In this document: positions 364 to 59,018 of the stretch, in pieces
Layout: every line of letters begins with the position of its first letter
How positions within the stretch are numbered: the first letter of the stretch is position 1
DNA from: Zootoca vivipara
Taxonomy: Eukaryota
Direction of reading: 5' to 3'
DNA: 64,000 nucleotides
Assembly (NCBI RefSeq): GCF_963506605.1
Contig: NC_083288.1
Span: 38,874,001 to 38,938,000, forward strand
Notes under the pieces: model-generated
Database searches by the model: none
What the model was told of the DNA's origin: nothing
Seen by the model: only the letters and a program-made list of their open reading frames with translations
Position numbers and translations under genes: made by a program

Positions 364-3300
364 TTGGGCCTGTGGAGTCATCTTTTTCACCCTCTTGGCT
401 GGCTCTCCTCCTTTTTGGCACCGTAAGCAGATGCTGATGCTTCGGATGATCATGGAAGGGCGATACCAGTTTGGCTCCCCTGAGTGGGATGACCGGTCCG
501 ACACAGTCAAAGATCTGGTAAGATGGTGACAATCCCATCTTTTGTAACACAACTCGAGCTACATGTACATTCAACATCTCCTTTTAGGAAACAGCTGTGC
601 CCAGAAAAAAAGACTTCTGCAATGTGGTATTGTGAAGGATCTTACCAGCTGGGCCCAACTGGGATTTGTCTTCCCACCAGTTTCTTATTAAATCCTACAG
701 GATCCCTGTCTAAAACAGTTTATATACAGTGTTCCTACTTTTTAATTTATAGCTGCCACTATTTAATTCCAGCTGGTTGCTTTAACCTTTTACTACATGG
801 AGTAGCAGATTAGAGGCATGGAACAAATGGAGCTGGAGGCTTGTAATATTAATAGTAATAATAGTAATAATAGTAGTAACAACAACAACAACAATAATTT
901 ATTATTTATACCCTGCCCATCTGGCTGGGTTTCCCCAGCCACTCTGGGTGGCTTCCAACAGAATATTAAAATACAATAATCTATTAAACATTAAAAGCTT
1001 CCCTAAACAAATATGCATTAAAGCTTATTTAATATAAAATCATGGCTTTAATGCAGGTATTTATTTAACAACATAGTTTGATGATTGCCAAAATATGTTA
1101 CTACATGGAGTAGCAGATTAGAGGCATGGAACAAATGGAGCTGGAGCCGGCGTACAGCTTCCAGGTCATGTGGCCAGCATGACTAAGCCGCTTCTGGCGA
1201 ACCAGAGCAGCACATGGAAACGCCGTTTATCTTCCCGCCAGAGTGGTACCTATTTATCTACTTGCACTTTGACGTGCTTTCGAACTGCTAGGTTGGCAGG
1301 AGCTGGGACCCAGCAATGGGAGCTCACCCCATCGCGGCGATTCGAACCGCCAACAGCGACACCCGCGTCCCATCATCATCACCTACATAGTTTGATGATT
1401 GCCAAAATATGTTACCATTACTTTAAATCTGGTGTTGGCTCAAAAAAGGTTGCTACATCATTGTCCTATTTCTCATCCCTATGCCGACCTGATAGCCAGA
1501 TCTCCATTTATCCACTGCTCTGGTCAGGGTATTACTGAAAGAGCACAAGGTAGCTAAGCGTGTCTCAATTGTTAGTCAGACTGAACTCCCATCTCTTGAG
1601 ACTTCTGCTCACCCCCTGATCGGCCTGATTCAGTTTTCTTCAGAAATCTCTTTTCTGGTCTGGCACTTGAAGACTCAGCCATCATGGTGCTGCCTCTGAA
1701 GTCTTTTTCCTTCGTGAGGCCCACTGTCAGCTGCTGGCCGCTCTGGTCAGACACCATCCTGGAAAACTACCTCTCCTGGCTGGCCTCCCTTAGTCCCTGT
1801 CTCCTGTGGTTCTAAGCTCATCTTCCGACTCTTTCTCATCTCCTGACCAACTGCTCCCAAAGAATGCTGTGTCTGCCCTTATATTTACTCCCTCTGGCCA
1901 ATCATTGGGTTCTTTCTGGAGTTCCGAGTCCTCATTGGACCAATCATTCGAACGGAATGCCCACGAAAGGACCTATCACTATTTGACTTTTTCAATTCAC
2001 TTGACCCTAATAAAAGGTAGAGTCCACAGCTAACTGCCATTAACTGTAAACCTAGCAAGTATGGAGCCAAATCTGGTATTTTGAAACTAGCCCTGGCAAG
2101 ACTGCCAGCTGAACCCACATACATTATATATTTTCTGACTTCAGCCAGAAGCAAAATGCTGGGTTTCCCTGCTTCTTCACACAATTAACCATTTTTTAAA
2201 TCAAATACTGCTATTGTAACAACCTTCTTACATTTAATCTCTGCTTTAAAAAAATCCAGTATCTTTACACAATTCAAAACTGTTTGTATATTTTATAGTA
2301 TTCTGGTTTTGGTTATGGGGAGGAGCAAAGAGTAACACAGGGATCCCTGCCCTTTACCTCCTAAAATCCTACGGTATTTGTTTCCCAATTCAAGCGTCAC
2401 ATATTTCAGCAGCCTCTATATTTTCAAAGTGTATCTTCTAGGCCTTGAGAACTAAAAACTTGTTTTTCCCTTTAGAAAGAGAACCAACATTCTCAGGATT
2501 ATTATTTTTCTGATTTACTCAGCTTTAAGATTCATCTCTTGAAATGTGTCAACAGTGGGGTAGAAGAGATCCCAGCAATTGTTGCCCATGTTAATAGATG
2601 ATCGCTTTGTGGTGAACTTGATTCCTGAGGCTTCCAGTACTTTCACCTCTGCCCTAATTGGCAGGTTTAAAAAACAAGATTCCATTGCAGAAAAAAGGCC
2701 CTGATTGGCAGCTAGTGACATGAAGTGTTTGGCAAAGTAGATTGACAGAGGGAGTTGAAGAAGTGAGAGTCTGTGGAAAAACTCACAACTAAGCGATAAA
2801 GTCAACGTGTATTGGTCAGAGAGTATCAGAGTAGGACCGGAGGAGATCCTGGTTCAAATATCCATTTAGCCACAGAACTCATTGGAAGACTTTAACCCTA
2901 TCTCCCAGCCTAACTTAGCTTGCAGAGTGAGAACCGCCCATGCTGTATTGAGCTTCTTGCAGGAAGGGTGGGATGAAACAGATTATTATTATTTGCCCCT
3001 GAATATAATAATTTATAATAATAATTTATTATTTGTACCCCGCCCATCTGGCTGAGTCTCCCCAGCCACTCTCAGCCTTCTACATTGGGCGCCAAATAAA
3101 TGCCCCTCTCCCCCAAATGTCTCTTGCCCAACTGTCTGTGTGTGTTTGGCAGATCTCACGACTGCTGCAGGTGGATCCAGAAGAACGGTTGACAGCTCAG
3201 CAGGCCCTGCAGCACCCCTTCTTCCAGCAGTACGGCGGCCGCAAACGCCAGCTCTTCAATCCGCACCACGCATTCAGGGCAAGTCTCTTGATCCTTCCTC

Positions 3301-4847
3301 CTGCCATGCAAATGTTTCCCGCACAGGAGGAAACATTTATGCTAAGGTGGTCCCTGCTGCAACATGTGCAGGCGTTTTCTAAAAACAATGTGTTCGCCTT
3401 TTTCCTTCATACCATTTTTTTAAAAAACGCAGATGTAATCAGTGAATTGACCAAAACCAGCATGACTGATCAATTAGGGCTTCTTAGTCAGTTTGTGTGC
3501 ATCCCCCTTCCCAATTTGATCGTCTCCTTTCACTGCTGGTGCTTTATAGCTTTCTGGTAATATGCCTGAAACTTTGTGGGTCTTTCCACTTGTTTCTTCC
3601 CTAGTCCGTTGTCACTGATGCATGGAGGATGTCTATCAATAGGTAGTGGTCATGATTGCTTTATGATATGGGATCAGAGGTAGCAGCATGCCTCTCAATA
3701 CCACTTGCTGAGGAGCAGGAGGAGGAGAGAGGGCTGTTGCATTTATGTCCCATTTGTTGACTTCCCAGAAGCACCCGGGAAGCCACACTGGAGAAGTGGT
3801 TGTTTATTTGCTACCAGGCCAGGTTAATTCACAAAGCCCTAAACAACTTGGGTGCAAAGTACGTTCAGGATGGTCTCATGCATTATACTCCCCCTTGATC
3901 ACAGAGATCCTCTTTAACGCAGTTTTCCAAACGTTTCATGTTGGCGACACACTTTTAAGGCGTGCATCATGTTGTGACAGTAATTCAGTTTTACTAGCAA
4001 ACCAGTTGTTAAAAAAACCCCTTTCCAGCCCCAGGACAAGTGTGGAGAGTGTTTGCGTGACACACCTACACACAGCAGCTGATAAACCAATGTGTCGTGA
4101 CTCACGGCACACAGTTTAGAAAAGATCTGCTCTCATCTGGAGGTTGCCCAGGCCCTTGAGTTTCATTTGGCCTTCACTAGAGGCTGTGCCTTTAGACCCT
4201 GCCCTGCTGAACTCCATATTCAGAAGAGGTTTGGCAGGAAAATGCCTTATTTCAGTCTGCTGAAAACTACTGTTTAGACCGCTCTTCACAATAGGAACTT
4301 TTTTTAAAAAAAACCAACCAGTATCTACTGTTGTTTTATTGATACTTATACACTGGTTTTATTATACTTTATCCGTTGTAAGCTACCTTGATATACTTTA
4401 TGAAAGCGTGGATTACAATCATTTAAATTAATGAATTGATAAATAAGAATGCTGGACCAGGTGGGTCTTAGTCTGGCACAGCAAGTGCTGATGTTCTCTC
4501 CTGCTAACCTTCTAGGTCTCGCTTCCCATATTGACACTATTCCCATCTCTTTCCCGCGATAGGTTCTTGCATGGACTGTGCGGGCCTCTATCCGCATCGT
4601 CTCCAACTACCGGCGGGTGCGGCCGGTCACCAAGGAGATGCTCATGTGCGACCCCTATGCGCTCAAGGGGGTGCGCAAGTTGATTGACGCGTGCGCCTTC
4701 CGCATCTATGGGCACTGGGTCAAGAAAGGTGAGCAGCAGAACCGGGCTGCCCTCTTTGAAAATGTCCCCAAGGCCATCCAGCTTGTGTTGCTCAGCACAG
4801 AGGGGGAGGAAGCCCCTGCGTTTGTGGTGGACGACCCTCCCAACTAA
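364..4847 (+). CDS. PHKG2: Phosphorylase kinase catalytic subunit gamma 2, last three coding exons (5' part lies outside the window)
   Basis: Exons 364-517 ([51 protein letters not shown]), 3153-3278 ([24 protein letters not shown]...FR) and 4563-4847 (VLAWTVRA...[38 protein letters not shown]...stop). They splice in frame with AG acceptors; the intron after 3278 has a GC donor. Kinase C-lobe plus calmodulin-binding tail. The WACGV/DDRS residues and adjacency to CFAP119-RNF40 favour PHKG2 over PHKG1. Confidence 0.95.
1144..1350 (-). mobile_element. Sauria SINE internal fragment
   Basis: GAGCCGGCGTACAGCTTCC.GGTCATGTGGCCAGCATGACTAAGCCGCTTCTGGCG...GGTACCTATTTATCTACTTGCAC...TTCGAACTGCTAGGTTGGCAGGAGC, recognised as the antisense Sauria SINE body. 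Confidence 0.75.
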
Positions 4848-5489
4848 ACACCTAGTTGCTGCTCCCTGTGGAACTGTGGAATCACTGGGTCCCTGAGCGA
4901 AGAAAGGAGGCAGAAGCCACTTCAAGAACTGTCCCACCACCTTCCATCTCTTCTTTGGGGATACAGCAAGTACCTCCTGTGGGGGGGGGGAGGTATCCTC
5001 ATCCTTGCATGCGAAGGGGGTCCAATTTCCTGGGGAACAAGGACTTCTTTGCCTTCTGGAAAGAATTCCCGAGTTTGTGGCTGTCGGAAACTAAGGGTCC
5101 CCTAACATACCTGGGAAGGGCCTTGAGATCTGTGTAGGGCAAGAATACAGAGCATCTGAATTGTTAGAAGTGTATGGATTAGGGAGGCTTATCTGTGTGT
5201 TGCCAGAAGAAGGACTTTTTGTCTTTGCATCTCTTCCCACAGTAAGGAGACCTGCTCCTGCTACCTCTTGCCCCTCAAAGCAGCCAATTTGACCATTGCT
5301 GAGGGATCAATCCTTGCATACAGCCAGTATGGGTGGTCTAGGGAGGAAGGGGGTGGATTGGGATTGGAAATTGCAGAGTTCCCTTTCCCTACTAGCAGGA
5401 ACTGGGCTCGACCCTTCTCTGTAGATTATACTGTATTTTATTTTCCACCTGGATGTGCCATCTTTCCACATCCGTGATGTCACAAATAG

Positions 5490-6257: not shown

Positions 6258-11354
<5,097 letters not shown>

Positions 11355-11398
11355 CTCTGGTTGTCGGAGTGTACCGTAGAAGGTTGGGGGAATCACGC

Positions 11399-11412
11399 GT
11401 TGCCATAGCAAT
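11399..11412. promoter_or_regulatory. RFX X-box at the CFAP119 5' end
   Basis: GTTGCCATAGCAAT versus consensus GTTGCCATGGCAAC, about 45 nt upstream of the inferred ATG of a ciliary gene. CCAAT boxes nearby at about 11424, 11450 and 11489. Confidence 0.75.
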
Positions 11413-11580
11413 CCCTGCTTCAGCCAATTGGAATTCCCTCGAAATTCGTCCAATAAGAACGAGGAATACTTGAGAGCGATGCGCTTCGCCAATTGTAGAG
11501 GTTCTCTTTGAAGTGTTCCGGCGATTGGGGGGGGGGAAGTACCAGTAGAGATAGAATAAATAGAGCGACATATTAACATA

Positions 11581-11774
11581 GTGATCCCCGACTCTTCGTG
11601 AACTCATGGACCAGAGCACGCCAGGCACTCCTGTCTTCCACTGCAGTTTGGTCAAGCTACCAACATGAGTTTGACCAAACTGCGGGAGGCAGTGGAAGAC
11701 AGGAGTGCCTGGCGTGCTCTGGTCCATGGGGTCACGAAGAGTCGGACAAGACTAAACGACTAAACAACAACAAC
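11581..11774. mobile_element. BovB 3' end with an inverted 5' segment
   Basis: About 11588-11655 antisense and 11655-11774 sense copies of the BovB tail, ending in (CAA)n; 9-bp TSD ATTAACATA. Confidence 0.85.
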
Positions 11775-11793
11775 ATTAACATATGTGAATTTT

Positions 11794-11922
11794 AGTTACA
11801 GGTAGGTAGCCCTGTTGGTCTGAGTCGAAACAAAATAAAAACATTCCTTCAGTATCACCTTAAAGACCAACTAAGTTTTTATTTTGGTATGAGCTTTCGT
11901 GTGCATGCACACTTCATCAGAT
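11794..11922 (-). mobile_element. Penelope-like element terminal-repeat fragment carrying a hammerhead ribozyme
   Basis: Minus strand reads ATCTGATGAAGTGTGCATGCACACGAAAGCTCATACCAAAATAAAAACTTAGTTGGTCTTTAAGGTG... Flanked by the 13-bp direct repeat ATATGTGAATTTT (11781-11793 and 11923-11935). Same family at 29464 and 48691. Confidence 0.8.
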
Positions 11923-11924
11923 AT
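11886..11924 (-). ncRNA. Minimal type I hammerhead ribozyme motif (PLE-type)
   Basis: CUGAUGA core (11914-11920), palindromic stem II GUGUGCAUGCACAC, GAAA (11895-11898), palindromic AGCU helix III, UC cleavage site between 11891 and 11890, and a 3-bp stem I (UAU/AUA). Confidence 0.7.
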
Positions 11925-12099
11925 ATGTGAATTTTGTTCGTAGAGATAGAAAAGCGCTTTTATTCCTCTATGGACCTCAGTGTTGGGCGCCAAGTAGAAT
12001 CTTACTGGGTTAAAATTTGTATTTTTAGTTTACGTGTAGGATCGAAATCTCCAATTCAAGGGTCTTGAATCACTCTAATTTTGGGAAGTCTACGATAAA

Positions 12100-12470
12100 G
12101 AAAGAGCCAATCACAGATCGCGCTTCCGTTAAGGCGTCTCGAGGAGGTTAAGCAACGCAGCCCTGGTTCGCGCTTTGCCCAATAGCTTGAGGTTGGATTT
12201 GCGCATGCGCACTCGGCAAAGAGGTTCTGGCTTCCGTCGTGGGCGAAGGTTGGGCCTTGAGAATGGTTGCGCGAGAGCATGCGCAGTAGGCGCGCTGGCG
12301 TTTCTCGGCCGGAGTAACGCATGGGGGGCGGGGGGAGAAGGACGAGGCAGCCGCAGCCGGGGGGGAGAGGGGCGCTCAGGCAGGTGAGTGAGAGGAGACC
12401 CCCCTCGACACCAGACCCCCCCTTGCAGCACGCTCCCTGCACGTGCCCCCCCCGCCCCGCTCTCCCCGCC
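12100..12470 (+). promoter_or_regulatory. CpG-island promoter and non-coding first exon of RNF40, bidirectional with CFAP119
   Basis: CpG-rich. CCAAT boxes at about 12107 and 12179, perfect NRF1 palindrome TGCGCATGCGCA at 12200-12211, second GCATGCGCA at about 12277, ETS-like CTTCCG cores, and splice donor CAG/GTGAGT after 12383. Confidence 0.75.
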
Positions 12471-13526
12471 CCCCGGCCTTATTGAGGTCCCCCCCTTGCC
12501 TGTGTGGATTGTTCCTAACTGAACTTTCCCCGGAGCAAGTCTCGCCCGCCTTGCCGGGTATTCCGATGCTGCCCTTTTAAAGGTGGCCTCATCCTTCCCT
12601 TGAATTGCTGTGAGGGGGTCCTGGCGGGGTCGGGGGTCGGGTGGGGAACCTCTGGCTCTGCAGAGGCTCTTGGGACTCTGGAACTGCGACCCCCAGTGTC
12701 TCCCCAAGACTGAGGGTCTGAGGGGAGTCGGAGTCCCGCAGCGTCTGGTTGAGGAAAACGGGACCCCCACCCTCGCACCTGAAAAACATGTCAGAGGGAA
12801 GTAGCAAAGCTGGGGCGAAAGGGGGGGAGGCTTCAGTGCGTCTTTAAAAATAGAGCGTGAAGTGTTTGCCTCCTTCCCATTTTTACTCCCCCCCCCCGCA
12901 GCTCCCCCTCCTTATTTCACTCTTTATTTTGGTTTGTTAACTCTCAATTTAAGAATATTTTTCCATAGTGTAGTTGGCATCCTCTCTCTCTCTTTGGCTA
13001 AGTCTTACCTCTTCTCCAAGCCTATGCTTTCTTTTTATCTGCTTGTCAACACCTCTCCGCCCAGCAGAGATTGGGCTCTTGGTACAGCACCAAGATAGAC
13101 ATCAGTGGTTCAGCAGGTGCCTCTTGCGCGTTAACTGTCTCTGTGCCAGGGGACACCTGTTGGTTTTTGGCCTGGTGTATAACTTTTAAAGTGCACACTG
13201 GGGGGGGAGTTAGCAGCCATATCTGCAACTTTTATTCCCCTTTGTGCCCTCTTATAAAAAATTCCATGATTCCCTTGATAATGTCACTGCATTTCCTTAC
13301 CTACCACACACCTCTTTTGCCCTCTGTGTTTTGCTTCTTTCTGCATCTCTGACCAGATATGGGAAGCAGTACCTGGTCTTGACTATAGGAAGATTAATGT
13401 CACATTAGTCTACTTACGGGCAACTGCAACTCACCCTCTCTCTTTTCCTTTCCCTTTATAGCTGAAGCGCTGCCCCCTTGGCTGACTGCCTGATTCCTCT
13501 GCTCTCACCTGCTGCTCAGAGTCACC

Positions 13527-16500
13527 ATGTCGGGACTTGCGAGCAAGCGGGCAGCTGGGGATGGGGGCTCTGGACCCCCTGAGAAGAAATCCAACAGGGA
13601 GGAGAAGACTACCACTACCCTGATTGAGCCCATCCGCCTGGGGGGCATCTCTTCCACGGTGAGGACCAGGGGATTGAGTGCAGGGTGGAGAAGTACTCAG
13701 GTGGTGGTGGTGGTCAAAGTCTGAAATTCGCTTCTGAAAGGTGTCGTGATGGCTGCCAAATTGGATAGCTTTGAAAGGGGGTTGGACAGATTCATGAAGG
13801 ATAAGGCTGTCAGCAGCCACTAGTTATGACTGTGTTCTGCCTCAACTGTCAGAGGCAGCTTGCACTGAATACCAGCTGCTGGGGAACCTGAGCTTGACAG
13901 TTGTGTTTCCCTCAGGTCCTGCTTGTTGGCTTCCTATGAGCATCTGGTTGCACACTGTGAGAAGAGAACTCTTTCTATATGGCAATTAATTGTTTTGATT
14001 TTTTAAAAATAAAATAAAAAACCCTTCTGGAAATAAATATTGGGAGTTTGGGGCGCAAGTATGCTCCAGATCAGGCTTTTTAAATAGGCAACTCTGCAAA
14101 AAAGAATATATAGGTTGGGACCAGGAAAAAAATTATGCCCAAAATTTTGCCTAGAAACTGGATGTTGGTAGCTGGGTATCTGAAATATCTCTGCAGGACT
14201 GGTGGCATAAAATTAGTTGCTAAGATTTAGGAGTTAGAAATACCTTCCCCTATCACTTTTAGAGGAAAATATTAAGCAGCACCTTCCAGGTTAATTTCCT
14301 GACAGGAACCTTTTCAACAGGGGCACGGGCCCCTGTGGTAGATTTCCGTCTTTTAACCACACCAGTTGTGATTTTAAAGGCAGTGTTTACTTGATCAGAA
14401 CAGCAGCACCTGCTGGGAACTCCCCAAAGTAGAGCTGTGGCCTATAAATGACTCAGGCTTATATAGGGGCCTTCCCTCACCTTAGCTTTGCACATGAGTA
14501 GCAATTAAGTACCATATCAAGGAGAATTGCAGTCGGCCAACTAAGCAATAACCTTATTGGGAGAGCAAAAGTAACATCATAGGCAGGGGCTTGAGAAAGC
14601 GAGGCCATAAGTTTACCTATCAGTGCCAGCAAATTCCTTCTCACTCTTTAATAGGCATATTGACTCTTTTATAACATCTTTCCACATCCTCTTCACACTT
14701 ACTTTTACTGTCTATTTGCTGTCAGTGTAGAGCAGGCATCCCCAAACTGCGGCCCTCCAGATGTTTTGGCCTACAATTCCCATGATCCCTAGCTAACAGG
14801 ACCAGTGGTCAGGGATGATGGGAATTGTAGTCCAAAACATCTGGAGGGCCGAAGTTTGGGGATGCCTGGTGTAGAGTATATACATCAATACATTTATCTA
14901 CTTTTAACTAAAAGAATAGAAAACTACCTTATACTGACTCAGACTGTTTGTTGATTGGTATTGTTGGCAGTGTCTGGCACCAGCTTTCAGCCAGGAGTCC
15001 TTCGCCACCCTCCATGGAGATGTTGGGGTTCAAATCTGAGACTTTTGCAAACAAAGCATGTGTTCTGCCACTGATCTGCACCCTTTAAGGAATTATTGGT
15101 CAATTTAAAAAAGAGAGGGGGACGGAATTCATTCTAGTTGTAGTTCTGTGCCACACTAGGGTAAATGATGATGGACCATATTTTTTTTAGGATGCTGTTG
15201 ATGTGTGTGTATCTATCTAATATAGTAGAAATACCATCAGAACTTGGAGTTGTTGATGGAAACGGCCGAGGATCATGCTGTGATTTACATTCTGATGTGC
15301 TGTTTTATTTCAGGAGGAGATGGACCTCAAGGTGCTCCAGTTCAAGAACAAGAAATTAGCCGAACGCCTGGAGCAGCGGCAGGCCTTTGAGGACGAGCTG
15401 CGTGAGCGCATAGAAAAGCTGGAGAAGAGGCAGGCCACCGACGATGCCACTCTCCTGATTGTCAACCGCTACTGGAAGCAGGTCAGGGCGCCTTCCTGTC
15501 CAATCGTTTCCTTTTCTTAAGTTTATAGTCCTTAAGGTTGACAAGATGAGGTTGATGATCAGTTCAGCAGCTGGTGGAAGCGTTAGGAAACCAGCAGGGT
15601 ATTAAGCAGGGTTTCTAAGTGGTTGGGGAGCGATATTTTGTCATGTTGCTCCTGTGTCACCTTCCTTGTGACAAGCACAAGCCAAATGGAGATAACTGGC
15701 TGGATAGTTTTGGTATTGACTCAGCCCTGCCTGTGGCATCCCCTATCTCTCCCTGTGTCCTTCTCAAGCCGTCTCTCCCCCCCCCCAATTTCTACAGCTA
15801 GATGAGACCGTGCAAGTGCTGCTGAGGCGATGTGACGGAGAATGCGGCCAGGCTCTCGAGGAGCCCAAGTTGGAGATGACGGGAGCCGAGTTGGATGCCG
15901 CTCTCCTGGGGCAGGAGGGGCTGGAGAGGAGAGGTGAGCCCAGCTCTCTCCGATACAGGATGCTGGGAGGAGATGCAGCTCCCGTCCTCAGAGCCAGTAA
16001 CCATTGCTGTTCTTCTGGTCCCCACAGAGGCAGTCCTGTCCCCCGTTACTCCCCCCGCCCCGTGGAAAGCTGGAGCGGGGCTTGTGCTGAACGAGTCAGC
16101 CCTCTCCTTCTTGGCTACCTTGGCCAGCAGCAGCAGCGAAGAGATTGAGCTGCAGCTCCAGGAGAGCATGGAGTTCTCCAAAGCCGCCGTCTCCCGCATC
16201 GTGGAGTTCTCTGACAAGATCCACCGGCGCACCGAGGAACTCTGCCAGAAGATCCACGCCCGGGGTGAGGCCAGGCCCCATGTCAGAGCTGGGCTGAGCA
16301 GGCACCTTTCGAAGCATTATTATTATTATCACATTTATTTCCCACATTTTTCTCCAAGGAGCTCCACGTGTTCTACACGGTTCTGCCCTATATCATTTAA
16401 TCCCCACAACAATCCTATGAGGTAGATTTTGACAGCATTCCCAGGATCATTTACATAACTTTTGTCTCCAAGCATCAGTTAGAAAAGGGAGGTTTGTTTT

Positions 16501-29463: not shown

Positions 29464-29687
29464 TTGCAGATAGGTAGCCGTGTTGGTCTGAGTCGAAACA
29501 AAATAAAAAAATTCCTTCAGTAGCACCTTAAAGACCAACTAAGTTTTTATTGTGGTATGAGCTTTCGTGTGCATGCACACTTCTTCAGAAGAAGAATGCA
29601 GAAGAAGAAGAAGTGTGCATACACACGAAAGCTCATACCAAAATAAAAACTTAGTTGGTCTTTAAGGTGCTACTGAAGGAATTTTTT
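29464..29687. mobile_element. Penelope-like inverted terminal-repeat pair with hammerhead motifs
   Basis: Two opposed copies of the repeat (arms about 29505-29586 and 29607-29688). Minus-strand CTGAAGA-stem-GAAAGCTCATACC at 29554-29588. 13-bp TSD TACTCTCAGGATG (29451-29463, 29688-29700). Confidence 0.8.
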
Positions 29688-30032
29688 TACTCTCAGGATG
29701 CTTAGCAAACTACAGTTACAGTACTAGGATTCCTTTGGGGAAGCCATGACTGTTTCACGTGGTATGCTACTACTTTAAATGTACAGTGCGGGGGGGGGGG
29801 AGCCCTTATCAGAGTTTAAGGACACATCCCAGTCAGGAGAAGGCATGGCTGCCCTGAGGAGAATCCCAAGGGCCAGGTAGAAAGGCTTGGAGGGCCACAC
29901 CTATTCCTTGGACTTGAGGTTCTCCTGTCCCAACCTATGCATTCCTATTCACATATTCTGTTTCTCAAACGCAAAGTAAACAATCAATTAATAATACTGT
30001 GTGTCCTTAACAGCTTAGGAGCTGCTTGAGAT

Positions 30033-42054: not shown

Positions 42055-59018
<16,964 letters not shown>

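What the first reader, a model, noticed from the sequence alone, without database searches (positions are those of the whole stretch)
11781..11935. Intact hammerhead-ribozyme core inserted in the CFAP119/RNF40 bidirectional promoter
Seen: the minus strand reads UAU-CUGAUGA-A-GUGUGCAUGCACAC-GAAA-GC-UC/AUACC. This is a full hammerhead core with a palindromic stem II and a minimal AGCU helix III, inside a 129-bp insertion with a 13-bp TSD. Known: Penelope-like elements carry such minimal type I hammerheads, which cleave as dimers through a palindromic helix III. Inference: it lies on the CFAP119 strand, between the RNF40 CpG island and the CFAP119 first exon. Divergent transcripts from the RNF40 promoter would cross it and could be cut, uncoupling the ciliary gene from the housekeeping promoter. 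Stem I is only 3 bp and partly comes from target DNA, so activity is uncertain.
Basis: partly seen in the sequence, partly recalled or inferred. Interest (0 to 1): 0.75.

Follow-up and report, generated by a model that had tools for sequence, protein, structure and literature searches.

The report
Penelope retroelement stub with hammerhead motif
A self-cutting-RNA motif really lies between the CFAP119 and RNF40 genes, but it is one of about 17,000 copies of the tail of a Penelope-type jumping gene, it lacks one base pair of its closing stem, and three RNA libraries show no transcript across it, so it is likely an inert passenger.

Summary
In detail: a minimal hammerhead core on the minus strand (11923-11886, predicted cut 11891/11890) inside a 129-130-bp insertion with an exact 13-bp duplication, between CFAP119 and RNF40. 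It is the 3' tip of a Neptune-type Penelope-like element: longer copies carry an RT + GIY-YIG frame 192 nt upstream on the same strand. The genome holds 16,971 copies as complete as this one and 15,365 with the fourth stem-I pair that this copy lacks. The regulatory idea is not supported. CFAP119 reads stop at least 436 nt short of the cut site, beside an X-box/CCAAT cluster. Unique flanks carry almost no minus-strand reads, and at most 1 of 1,198 reads over the repeat bears this copy's allele. A native AATAAA lies 40 nt ahead of the element. Neither RNA ends nor genomic copy ends pile up at the cut site. Caveats: three libraries from one study, insensitive to unstable RNA; no orthologous empty site seen. 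The scan met similar stubs before on other DNA. Ordinary.

The parts
11794..11923 (-). 3'-terminal 129-130 bp of a Neptune-type Penelope-like element, 5' end inside hammerhead stem I
   Evidence: 40 of 40 scored genomic candidates match at 93-100%; same fixed left end and continuation into an RT + GIY-YIG frame in L029/L031
11781..11793 (.). target-site duplication, left copy
   Evidence: 13/13 identical; junction contig in DNA run X1, 0 differences
11923..11935 (.). target-site duplication, right copy (first base shared with the element)
   Evidence: junction contigs in X1, X5, X6
11886..11923 (-). minimal type I hammerhead: 3-bp stem I, CUGAUGA, extra A, palindromic stem II, GAAA, GC spacer, UC cut triplet end; predicted cut 11891/11890
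   Evidence: sequence, numbering and folding
11878..11883 (-). AATAAA inside the element, just after the cut site (another on the + strand at 11834-11839)
   Evidence: motif scan; function not tested
11959..11964 (-). native AATAAA that a divergent RNF40 transcript would meet before the element
   Evidence: motif scan; function inferred from PMC4085477 passages
11581..11774 (+). neighbouring RTE/BovB-type LINE 3' stub with inverted 5' arm; duplication 11572-11580 / 11775-11783 overlaps the Penelope duplication by 3 nt
   Evidence: inverted arms; 95-96% to RT-frame ends in L014 and L031; the name BovB is recalled
11331..11454 (-). CFAP119 first exon region (donor after 11331, ATG 11354; upstream edge known only to the bin 11298-11454)
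   Evidence: strand-biased reads, depth 3.78 in X23, 0.09 in the next bin; donor and ATG from sequence
11399..11528 (.). CFAP119-proximal promoter-like cluster: X-box-like site 11399-11412, five CCAAT boxes
   Evidence: only X-box-like match in the 64-kb window; 4 sites in 369,800 sampled bases; consensus recalled; X-box near start sites per PMC5838959 passages
12051..12383 (+). RNF40 promoter-like CpG-rich stretch (CCAAT, NRF1-like, GC box) and predicted first exon
   Evidence: CpG o/e 1.18 at 12101-12300 and motifs; no reads here, so predicted only
13462..13658 (+). RNF40 first coding exon (ATG 13527)
   Evidence: BRE1B residues 1-44, E 2.3e-17; reads depth 22.9 in X23

Best explanation
The insertion is the last 130 bases of a very abundant Penelope-like retroelement, likely pasted by the element's own endonuclease and reverse transcriptase into the AT-rich spacer between two likely separate promoters, and its hammerhead is likely silent here. 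Shown: identity with the family, copy number, the duplication, the lost fourth stem-I pair, the gene order, and the lack of reads from this copy in three libraries. Inferred: staggered nicks in AT-rich DNA, copying from the family's fixed 3' start on uncut RNA, and a stop at the 5' edge of stem I, where many copies stop. Inferred: CFAP119 starts near 11400-11450 from its own RFX/CCAAT promoter, so its mRNA never contains the ribozyme; any divergent RNF40 RNA would meet a poly(A) signal at 11964 first and, if it read through, would carry a lone minimal hammerhead with a 3-bp all-A-U stem I and no partner.
For: 21,088 exact copies of the 30-nt core, control 0; 16,971 as complete as this one, 15,365 with the fourth pair. 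RT E 4.3e-11 and GIY-YIG E 4e-05 in a frame ending 192 nt upstream of the same motif in L031. 30 of 77 sampled cores end within 15 nt 5' of the core. Loss of matches across the cut site is 3.6% per 4 nt against 3.5% for the 4 nt before it (15,341 to 14,800 to 14,263): no genomic trace of cut RNA as template. RNA: minus-strand-RNA depth 0, 0, 0 in 11926-12082; 0.09 in 11455-11611 against 3.78 in 11298-11454 (X23); this copy's allele in at most 1 of 1,198 reads at 11812 and 5 of 2,072 at 11855; no begin/end pile at 11890/11891. Stem I pair probability 0.02 and the active-like fold is 1.6 kcal/mol worse than stem II alone, whereas the 4-bp family form is 1.3 better. Single minimal hammerheads showed no cleavage (PMC4209133); the Anolis one needed protein and no RNA-seq reads ended at its cut site (PMC11167929).
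Against: The RNA test is weak for unstable RNA: three runs of one study, about 6% of each read, tissues and genotypes unknown, CFAP119 well expressed in only one, and the predicted RNF40 first exon also has no reads. X21 shows depth 1.43 in 11455-11611 with 20 molecules beginning at 11605, inside the RTE stub, most simply reads of other copies but not proven so. The insertion junction is in DNA runs of three studies of the same organism (X1, X5, X6), so it may be fixed, which drift or selection could both give. The core has no damaging change. Three of four 4-bp family copies folded also had low stem-I probability (0.005-0.10) in their own context, so folding alone does not single this copy out. 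No empty orthologous site was seen.
Confidence: 0.82

Rival explanations
1. The insertion matters as DNA or as a terminator, not as a ribozyme: together with the neighbouring LINE stub it adds about 345 bp to the spacer and brings AATAAA signals on both strands, which would weaken read-through or cross-talk between the two promoters.
For: Two insertions hit the same AT-rich site; AATAAA at 11883 (-) and 11834 (+); poly(A) signals end upstream antisense RNA in mammals (PMC4085477 passages); junction present in three studies' DNA.
Against: A native minus-strand AATAAA already lies at 11964; both AATAAA are ordinary family sequence found in thousands of copies; no 3' ends were seen there.
Confidence: 0.08
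2. The motif does cut now and then, when rare antisense RNA reads through and is helped by Penelope protein or pairs in trans with one of the many other transcribed copies, but with no effect on either gene.
For: Core intact; family copies are abundant in RNA, 377-1,596 reads deep at 11879; protein-assisted cleavage shown for the Anolis element (PMC11167929); dimers give low activity.
Against: No pile of RNA ends at the cut site even for the family as a whole; two copies of this core are predicted to pair through the 14-nt stem II palindrome without forming stem I; no reads from this copy.
Confidence: 0.06
3. One reading: divergent RNF40 transcripts cross the motif, are cut at 11891/11890, and this uncouples CFAP119 from the housekeeping promoter.
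For: Right strand and position between the genes; expression differs between the genes' strands and samples.
Against: All points under the best explanation; a cut 3' product would cover 11455-11890 and does not; mouse Ccdc189 is testis-predominant (PMC10437088, start of abstract) although mammals lack such hammerhead families.
Confidence: 0.04

Closest known systems
Minimal hammerheads (min-HHR) of metazoan Penelope-like elements (Cervera and de la Pena 2014, PMC4209133; parts 1-2 of 4 read)
   Same: Type I core, extra nucleotide between 9 and 10.1, G10.1-C11.1 pair, palindromic 15.2-16.2, long stem II, mostly dispersed single motifs from truncated elements; reported in fish Neptune/Poseidon elements, turtle and snakes.
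   Different: Stem I is 3 bp here against 4-5 bp described for the Schistosoma families and 4 bp in this family. Their supplement (not seen) may already list this reptile family.
Neptune clade of EN+ Penelope-like elements (Craig et al. 2021, PMC8557442; passages)
   Same: RT then C-terminal GIY-YIG, CX4CxxC linker fitting their CX2-5CxxC motif, 5'-truncated and inverted copies, hammerhead in the terminal repeat.
   Different: This copy is a solo 130-bp stub with no frame; no tree was built, so Neptune against Nematis rests on the linker and on vertebrate distribution.
Poseidon element of Anolis carolinensis, PAc (Frangieh et al. 2024, PMC11167929; parts 1-2 of 4 read)
   Same: Lizard PLE, AT-rich targets, fixed internal start of reverse transcription, uncut RNA as template, no RNA-seq ends at the cut site.
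   Different: Other clade; in PAc the frame starts in stem II, whereas here the reading from the ATG in the stem II loop stops after 8 codons (read).
Non-LTR retrozymes (Li, Clavereau, Pollet 2026, 10.64898/2026.07.22.740005; part 1 of 5 and passages)
   Same: Non-coding, hammerhead-bearing, PLE-derived.
   Different: Defined as tandem arrays with at least two complete hammerheads; this is a single copy.

Membership tests
PLE minimal hammerhead (min-HHR) | Catalytic boxes CUGANGA, GAAA, UH | tested here: met
   11920-11914, 11898-11895, 11892-11891
PLE minimal hammerhead (min-HHR) | Extra nucleotide between 9 and 10.1 and G10.1-C11.1 pair | tested here: met
   A 11913; G 11912 with C 11899; features
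PLE minimal hammerhead (min-HHR) | Palindromic 15.2-16.2, no stable helix III | tested here: met
   GC at 11894-11893
PLE minimal hammerhead (min-HHR) | Helix I of 4-5 bp | tested here: not met
   3 bp here; family form has 4 bp in 15,365 of 16,971 copies. So a truncated copy of a member family
PLE minimal hammerhead (min-HHR) | Self-cleavage (as dimer or with protein) | not testable with these tools
   Indirect only: no RNA or genomic ends at the cut site
Penelope-like element, Neptune clade | RT plus C-terminal GIY-YIG in one frame, in longer copies of the family | tested here: met
   L031:5777-7234, RVT_1 E 4.3e-11, GIY-YIG E 4e-05
Penelope-like element, Neptune clade | CX2-5CxxC zinc-finger-like linker between RT and endonuclease | tested here: met
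   CX4CxxC in the L031 frame; criterion
Penelope-like element, Neptune clade | 5'-truncated, inverted and partial-tandem insertions with the hammerhead in the terminal repeat | tested here: met
   L031 inverted pair; 17 fold-backs among 32 short copies; L129 tandem
Penelope-like element, Neptune clade | RT phylogeny inside the clade | not tested
   No reference PLE proteins were on hand; no tree built
Non-LTR retrozyme | Tandem array with two or more complete hammerheads | tested here: not met
   Single copy; nearest other family core in the window is at 29463-29689
Domesticated cis-regulatory ribozyme of a host gene | Lies in a host transcript | tested here: not met
   No reads from this copy in 3 of 3 libraries; weak for unstable RNA
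Domesticated cis-regulatory ribozyme of a host gene | Conserved at the orthologous site across species | tested here: inconclusive
   Present in three studies' DNA of the same organism; other organisms' runs did not cover the site informatively

The most novel reading that the evidence does not exclude
The roughly 17,000 identical palindromic cores form a dispersed, trans-acting ribozyme network: any host RNA that reads through one copy can be cut by pairing with another transcribed copy or with help from Penelope protein, and at this locus that cut removes RNF40 antisense RNA before it reaches the CFAP119 promoter.
Probability: 0.04. Interest if true: 0.7.

Novelty: new member of a known kind. 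Interest (0 to 1): 0.12.

Why it matters
As found, it matters little: it is one ordinary copy of a known class. Its use is as a baseline. With about 12 complete cores per Mb, some 240 would fall within 1 kb upstream of gene starts if insertion were uniform (assuming 20,000 genes), so a hammerhead in a lizard promoter is expected. The family-level counts add a small point to an open question, what PLE hammerheads do: copies do not end at the cut site but often end at the 5' edge of stem I. If the regulatory reading were true, it would be a transposon ribozyme co-opted to insulate a bidirectional promoter; two searches listed no paper on such a case or on this locus.

Tried and rejected
Rfam scan of 8000-16000: no hammerhead family at E<=10. 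Whole-element fold: z -1.22, not unusual, hammerhead fold not formed. The look-up of sequencing runs: no RNA holder listed; only raw-read runs of the same species label were informative. Empty-site test in other organisms: X13 has no cover at 11266-11570 or 11998-12302; X11 has one contig ending 3 bases inside the element with no differences from the window, too little and too alike to count as another species. BRE1 Pfam search did not ring in the window, so RNF40 was named from solved-structure matches instead. The 25-codon stretch at the CFAP119 first exon matched nothing (it is in the frame of ATG 11354). Lunse et al. 2016 (PMC5785218) was not held; its dimer result is known here only through a review (PMC6765202 passages). 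The cattle CCDC189 preprint does not mention RNF40 or PHKG2, so the head-to-head order in mammals is recalled, not checked. The ungapped 5'-end count mis-scored subfamilies and was replaced. Tandem Repeats Finder missed the 598-bp unit of L129 (period limit 500). Rejected: chance motif; retrozyme (not tandem); ribozyme inside CFAP119 mRNA.

Full report
Observation. The minus strand from 11923 to 11886 holds a minimal type I hammerhead exactly as described, with the predicted cut between 11891 and 11890. The 13-bp direct repeat at 11781-11793 and 11923-11935 is exact and encloses 129 bp. A relaxed descriptor finds only this site in the window and three sites, all of the same repeat, in 37 sampled stretches of 369,800 bases. 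Rfam does not report it. The flanking genes are CFAP119 on the minus strand and RNF40 on the plus strand.

What it is. The insert matches 40 of 40 scored genomic candidates at 93-100%, out of 493. The 30-nt core occurs exactly 21,088 times in the 1.44-Gb genome, control 0. Two more loci of the family lie in the window, both fold-backs. In longer copies the same motif lies 192 nt downstream of a frame with RT (E 4.3e-11) and GIY-YIG (E 4e-05) domains and a CX4CxxC linker (L031). By the criteria in PMC8557442 (passages) this is a Neptune-type Penelope-like element; no tree was built. The insert is the element's last 130 bases, oriented on the minus strand.

The ribozyme in this copy. The catalytic boxes, the extra nucleotide before stem II, the G10.1-C11.1 pair and the palindromic 15.2-16.2 match the min-HHR consensus of PMC4209133 (parts 1-2 of 4). 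The family's stem I has four pairs: of 16,971 copies as complete as this one, 15,365 have the fourth G; 23 of 25 other close copies in which the core was located show it (four of 30 loci were not scored). This copy lacks it. Its stem I pairs have probability about 0.02, and the active-like monomer fold (-3.9 kcal/mol) is worse than stem II alone (-5.5), while the 4-bp form is better (-6.8); but three of four family copies folded also had low stem-I probability in their own context. Two copies of the core are predicted to pair through the stem II palindrome, not into the active dimer. Published single min-HHRs did not cut, dimers cut poorly, and the Anolis Poseidon hammerhead cut only with protein (PMC11167929, parts 1-2 of 4).

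How it got there (inferred). Copies share one fixed 3' end, as expected from the internal start of reverse transcription shown for the Anolis element. The target is about 70% AT. Of 77 cores from the first 60 stretches taken along contig C1, 45 reach the upstream repeat sequence, 32 stop before it, and 30 of those stop within 15 nt of the core; 17 fold back (both arms of inverted pairs are counted). Genome-wide, matches fall by 9.5% at the single fourth stem-I position (part of this may be subfamily variation), but by only 3.6% over the four bases across the cut site, the same as the 3.5% over the four bases before it (15,341, 14,800, 14,263). So insertions come from uncut RNA and often end at the 5' edge of stem I. 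This copy is a typical product. An RTE-type LINE stub sits at the same site, with a duplication that overlaps this one by 3 nt.

Is it transcribed? Three raw RNA runs of one study, about 6% of each, were laid on 9100-13800. CFAP119 exons are read on the expected strand, best in X23 (38.1 and 18.9; 3.78 in the bin 11298-11454), with 0.09 in the next bin. The unique bin 11926-12082 has no minus-strand-RNA depth in any run. The many reads over the repeat come from other copies: this copy's allele is in at most 1 of 1,198 reads at 11812 and 5 of 2,072 at 11855, and none of the 29 closest copies has all three diagnostic alleles. No molecules pile up at the cut site. Against this: the predicted RNF40 first exon has no reads either although its second exon has 22.9, the donors' genotypes are unknown, and standard RNA-seq misses unstable antisense RNA. 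X21 has 20 molecules beginning at 11605 inside the LINE stub, most simply from other copies.

Promoter layout. The spacer has two motif clusters: an X-box-like site at 11399-11412 with five CCAAT boxes next to the CFAP119 first exon, and CCAAT, NRF1-like and GC-box sites in the CpG-rich stretch from 12051 (consensus motifs recalled). The X-box-like match is the only one in the window, against 4 sites in 369,800 sampled bases (the pattern was relaxed after seeing the site). Functional X-boxes lie close to start sites (PMC5838959 passages). A native minus-strand AATAAA at 11964 comes before the element for any divergent RNF40 RNA; such signals end upstream antisense RNA in mammals (PMC4085477 passages). 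Mouse Ccdc189 is testis-predominant (PMC10437088, start of abstract) and mammals lack these hammerhead families, so restricted expression needs no ribozyme.

Age. The right junction is in DNA runs X1, X5 and X6 from three studies of the same organism, and X1 also has the left junction at single-copy depth. Other organisms' runs were not informative, so no empty site was seen.

Chance of the position. 11.8 complete cores per Mb give about 1% for any 900-bp stretch and about 240 within 1 kb upstream of an assumed 20,000 gene starts.

Comparison and verdict. It works like, and is a truncated copy from, a known class: the minimal hammerheads of Penelope-like elements. It is not a retrozyme as defined in 10.64898/2026.07.22.740005 (part 1 of 5 and passages), being single. 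PMC3846280 (passages) describes the same duplications, tails and inverted repeats. PMC5785218 was not held; supplements of PMC4209133 were not seen and may list this family. Searches listed no paper on this locus or on a PLE hammerhead acting in a host promoter. Earlier notes of this scan describe similar stubs and fold-backs in other genomes; none by place or sequence. Verdict: observation confirmed, regulatory inference unsupported, interest 0.12.

Noticed in passing
window 11572-11783: RTE/BovB-type LINE 3' stub with an inverted 5' arm (66-nt arms, 91%), whose 9-bp duplication overlaps the Penelope duplication by 3 nt: two independent insertions into one AT-rich promoter spacer.
   Followed up: partly
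L129:320-2742 (G000:C1:2777319-2779741): Tandem of four 598-bp units, 99.9% alike, each a Penelope 3' end with a complete hammerhead: a retrozyme-like array and a better candidate for dimer cleavage than the window copy.
   Followed up: partly
L070-L129; L004, L005: Copy 5' ends cluster 9-13 nt upstream of the core, where several subfamilies show a pyrimidine tract ending in CAG, like a splice acceptor; PMC4209133 reports an intron ending at helix I in Drosophila virilis. Could mark an RNA start, a splice joint or an RT stop.
   Followed up: partly
window 29463-29689 and 48688-48850: Two more Penelope stubs of the same family, each a fold-back pair; the second turns round at the hammerhead's cut region.
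   Followed up: partly
window 11545-11556 and 11940-11951: An exact 12-nt direct repeat flanking both insertions at a distance, unexplained; perhaps an older local duplication.
   Followed up: no
window 14752-14849: Near-perfect hairpin in an RNF40 intron with sub-threshold miRNA-family hits on both strands, most likely a MITE-like repeat.
   Followed up: no
window about 3000-5100: Kinase-like exons on the plus strand ending near the CFAP119 3' end (Pkinase E 0.002); by recall this is PHKG2, as in mammals.
   Followed up: no
window 11769-11925, run X21: Family-derived reads are abundant in all three RNA runs, and X21 has 83 reads with a strand-switching joint 11841/11909, that is, a transcribed fold-back copy elsewhere.
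   Followed up: no
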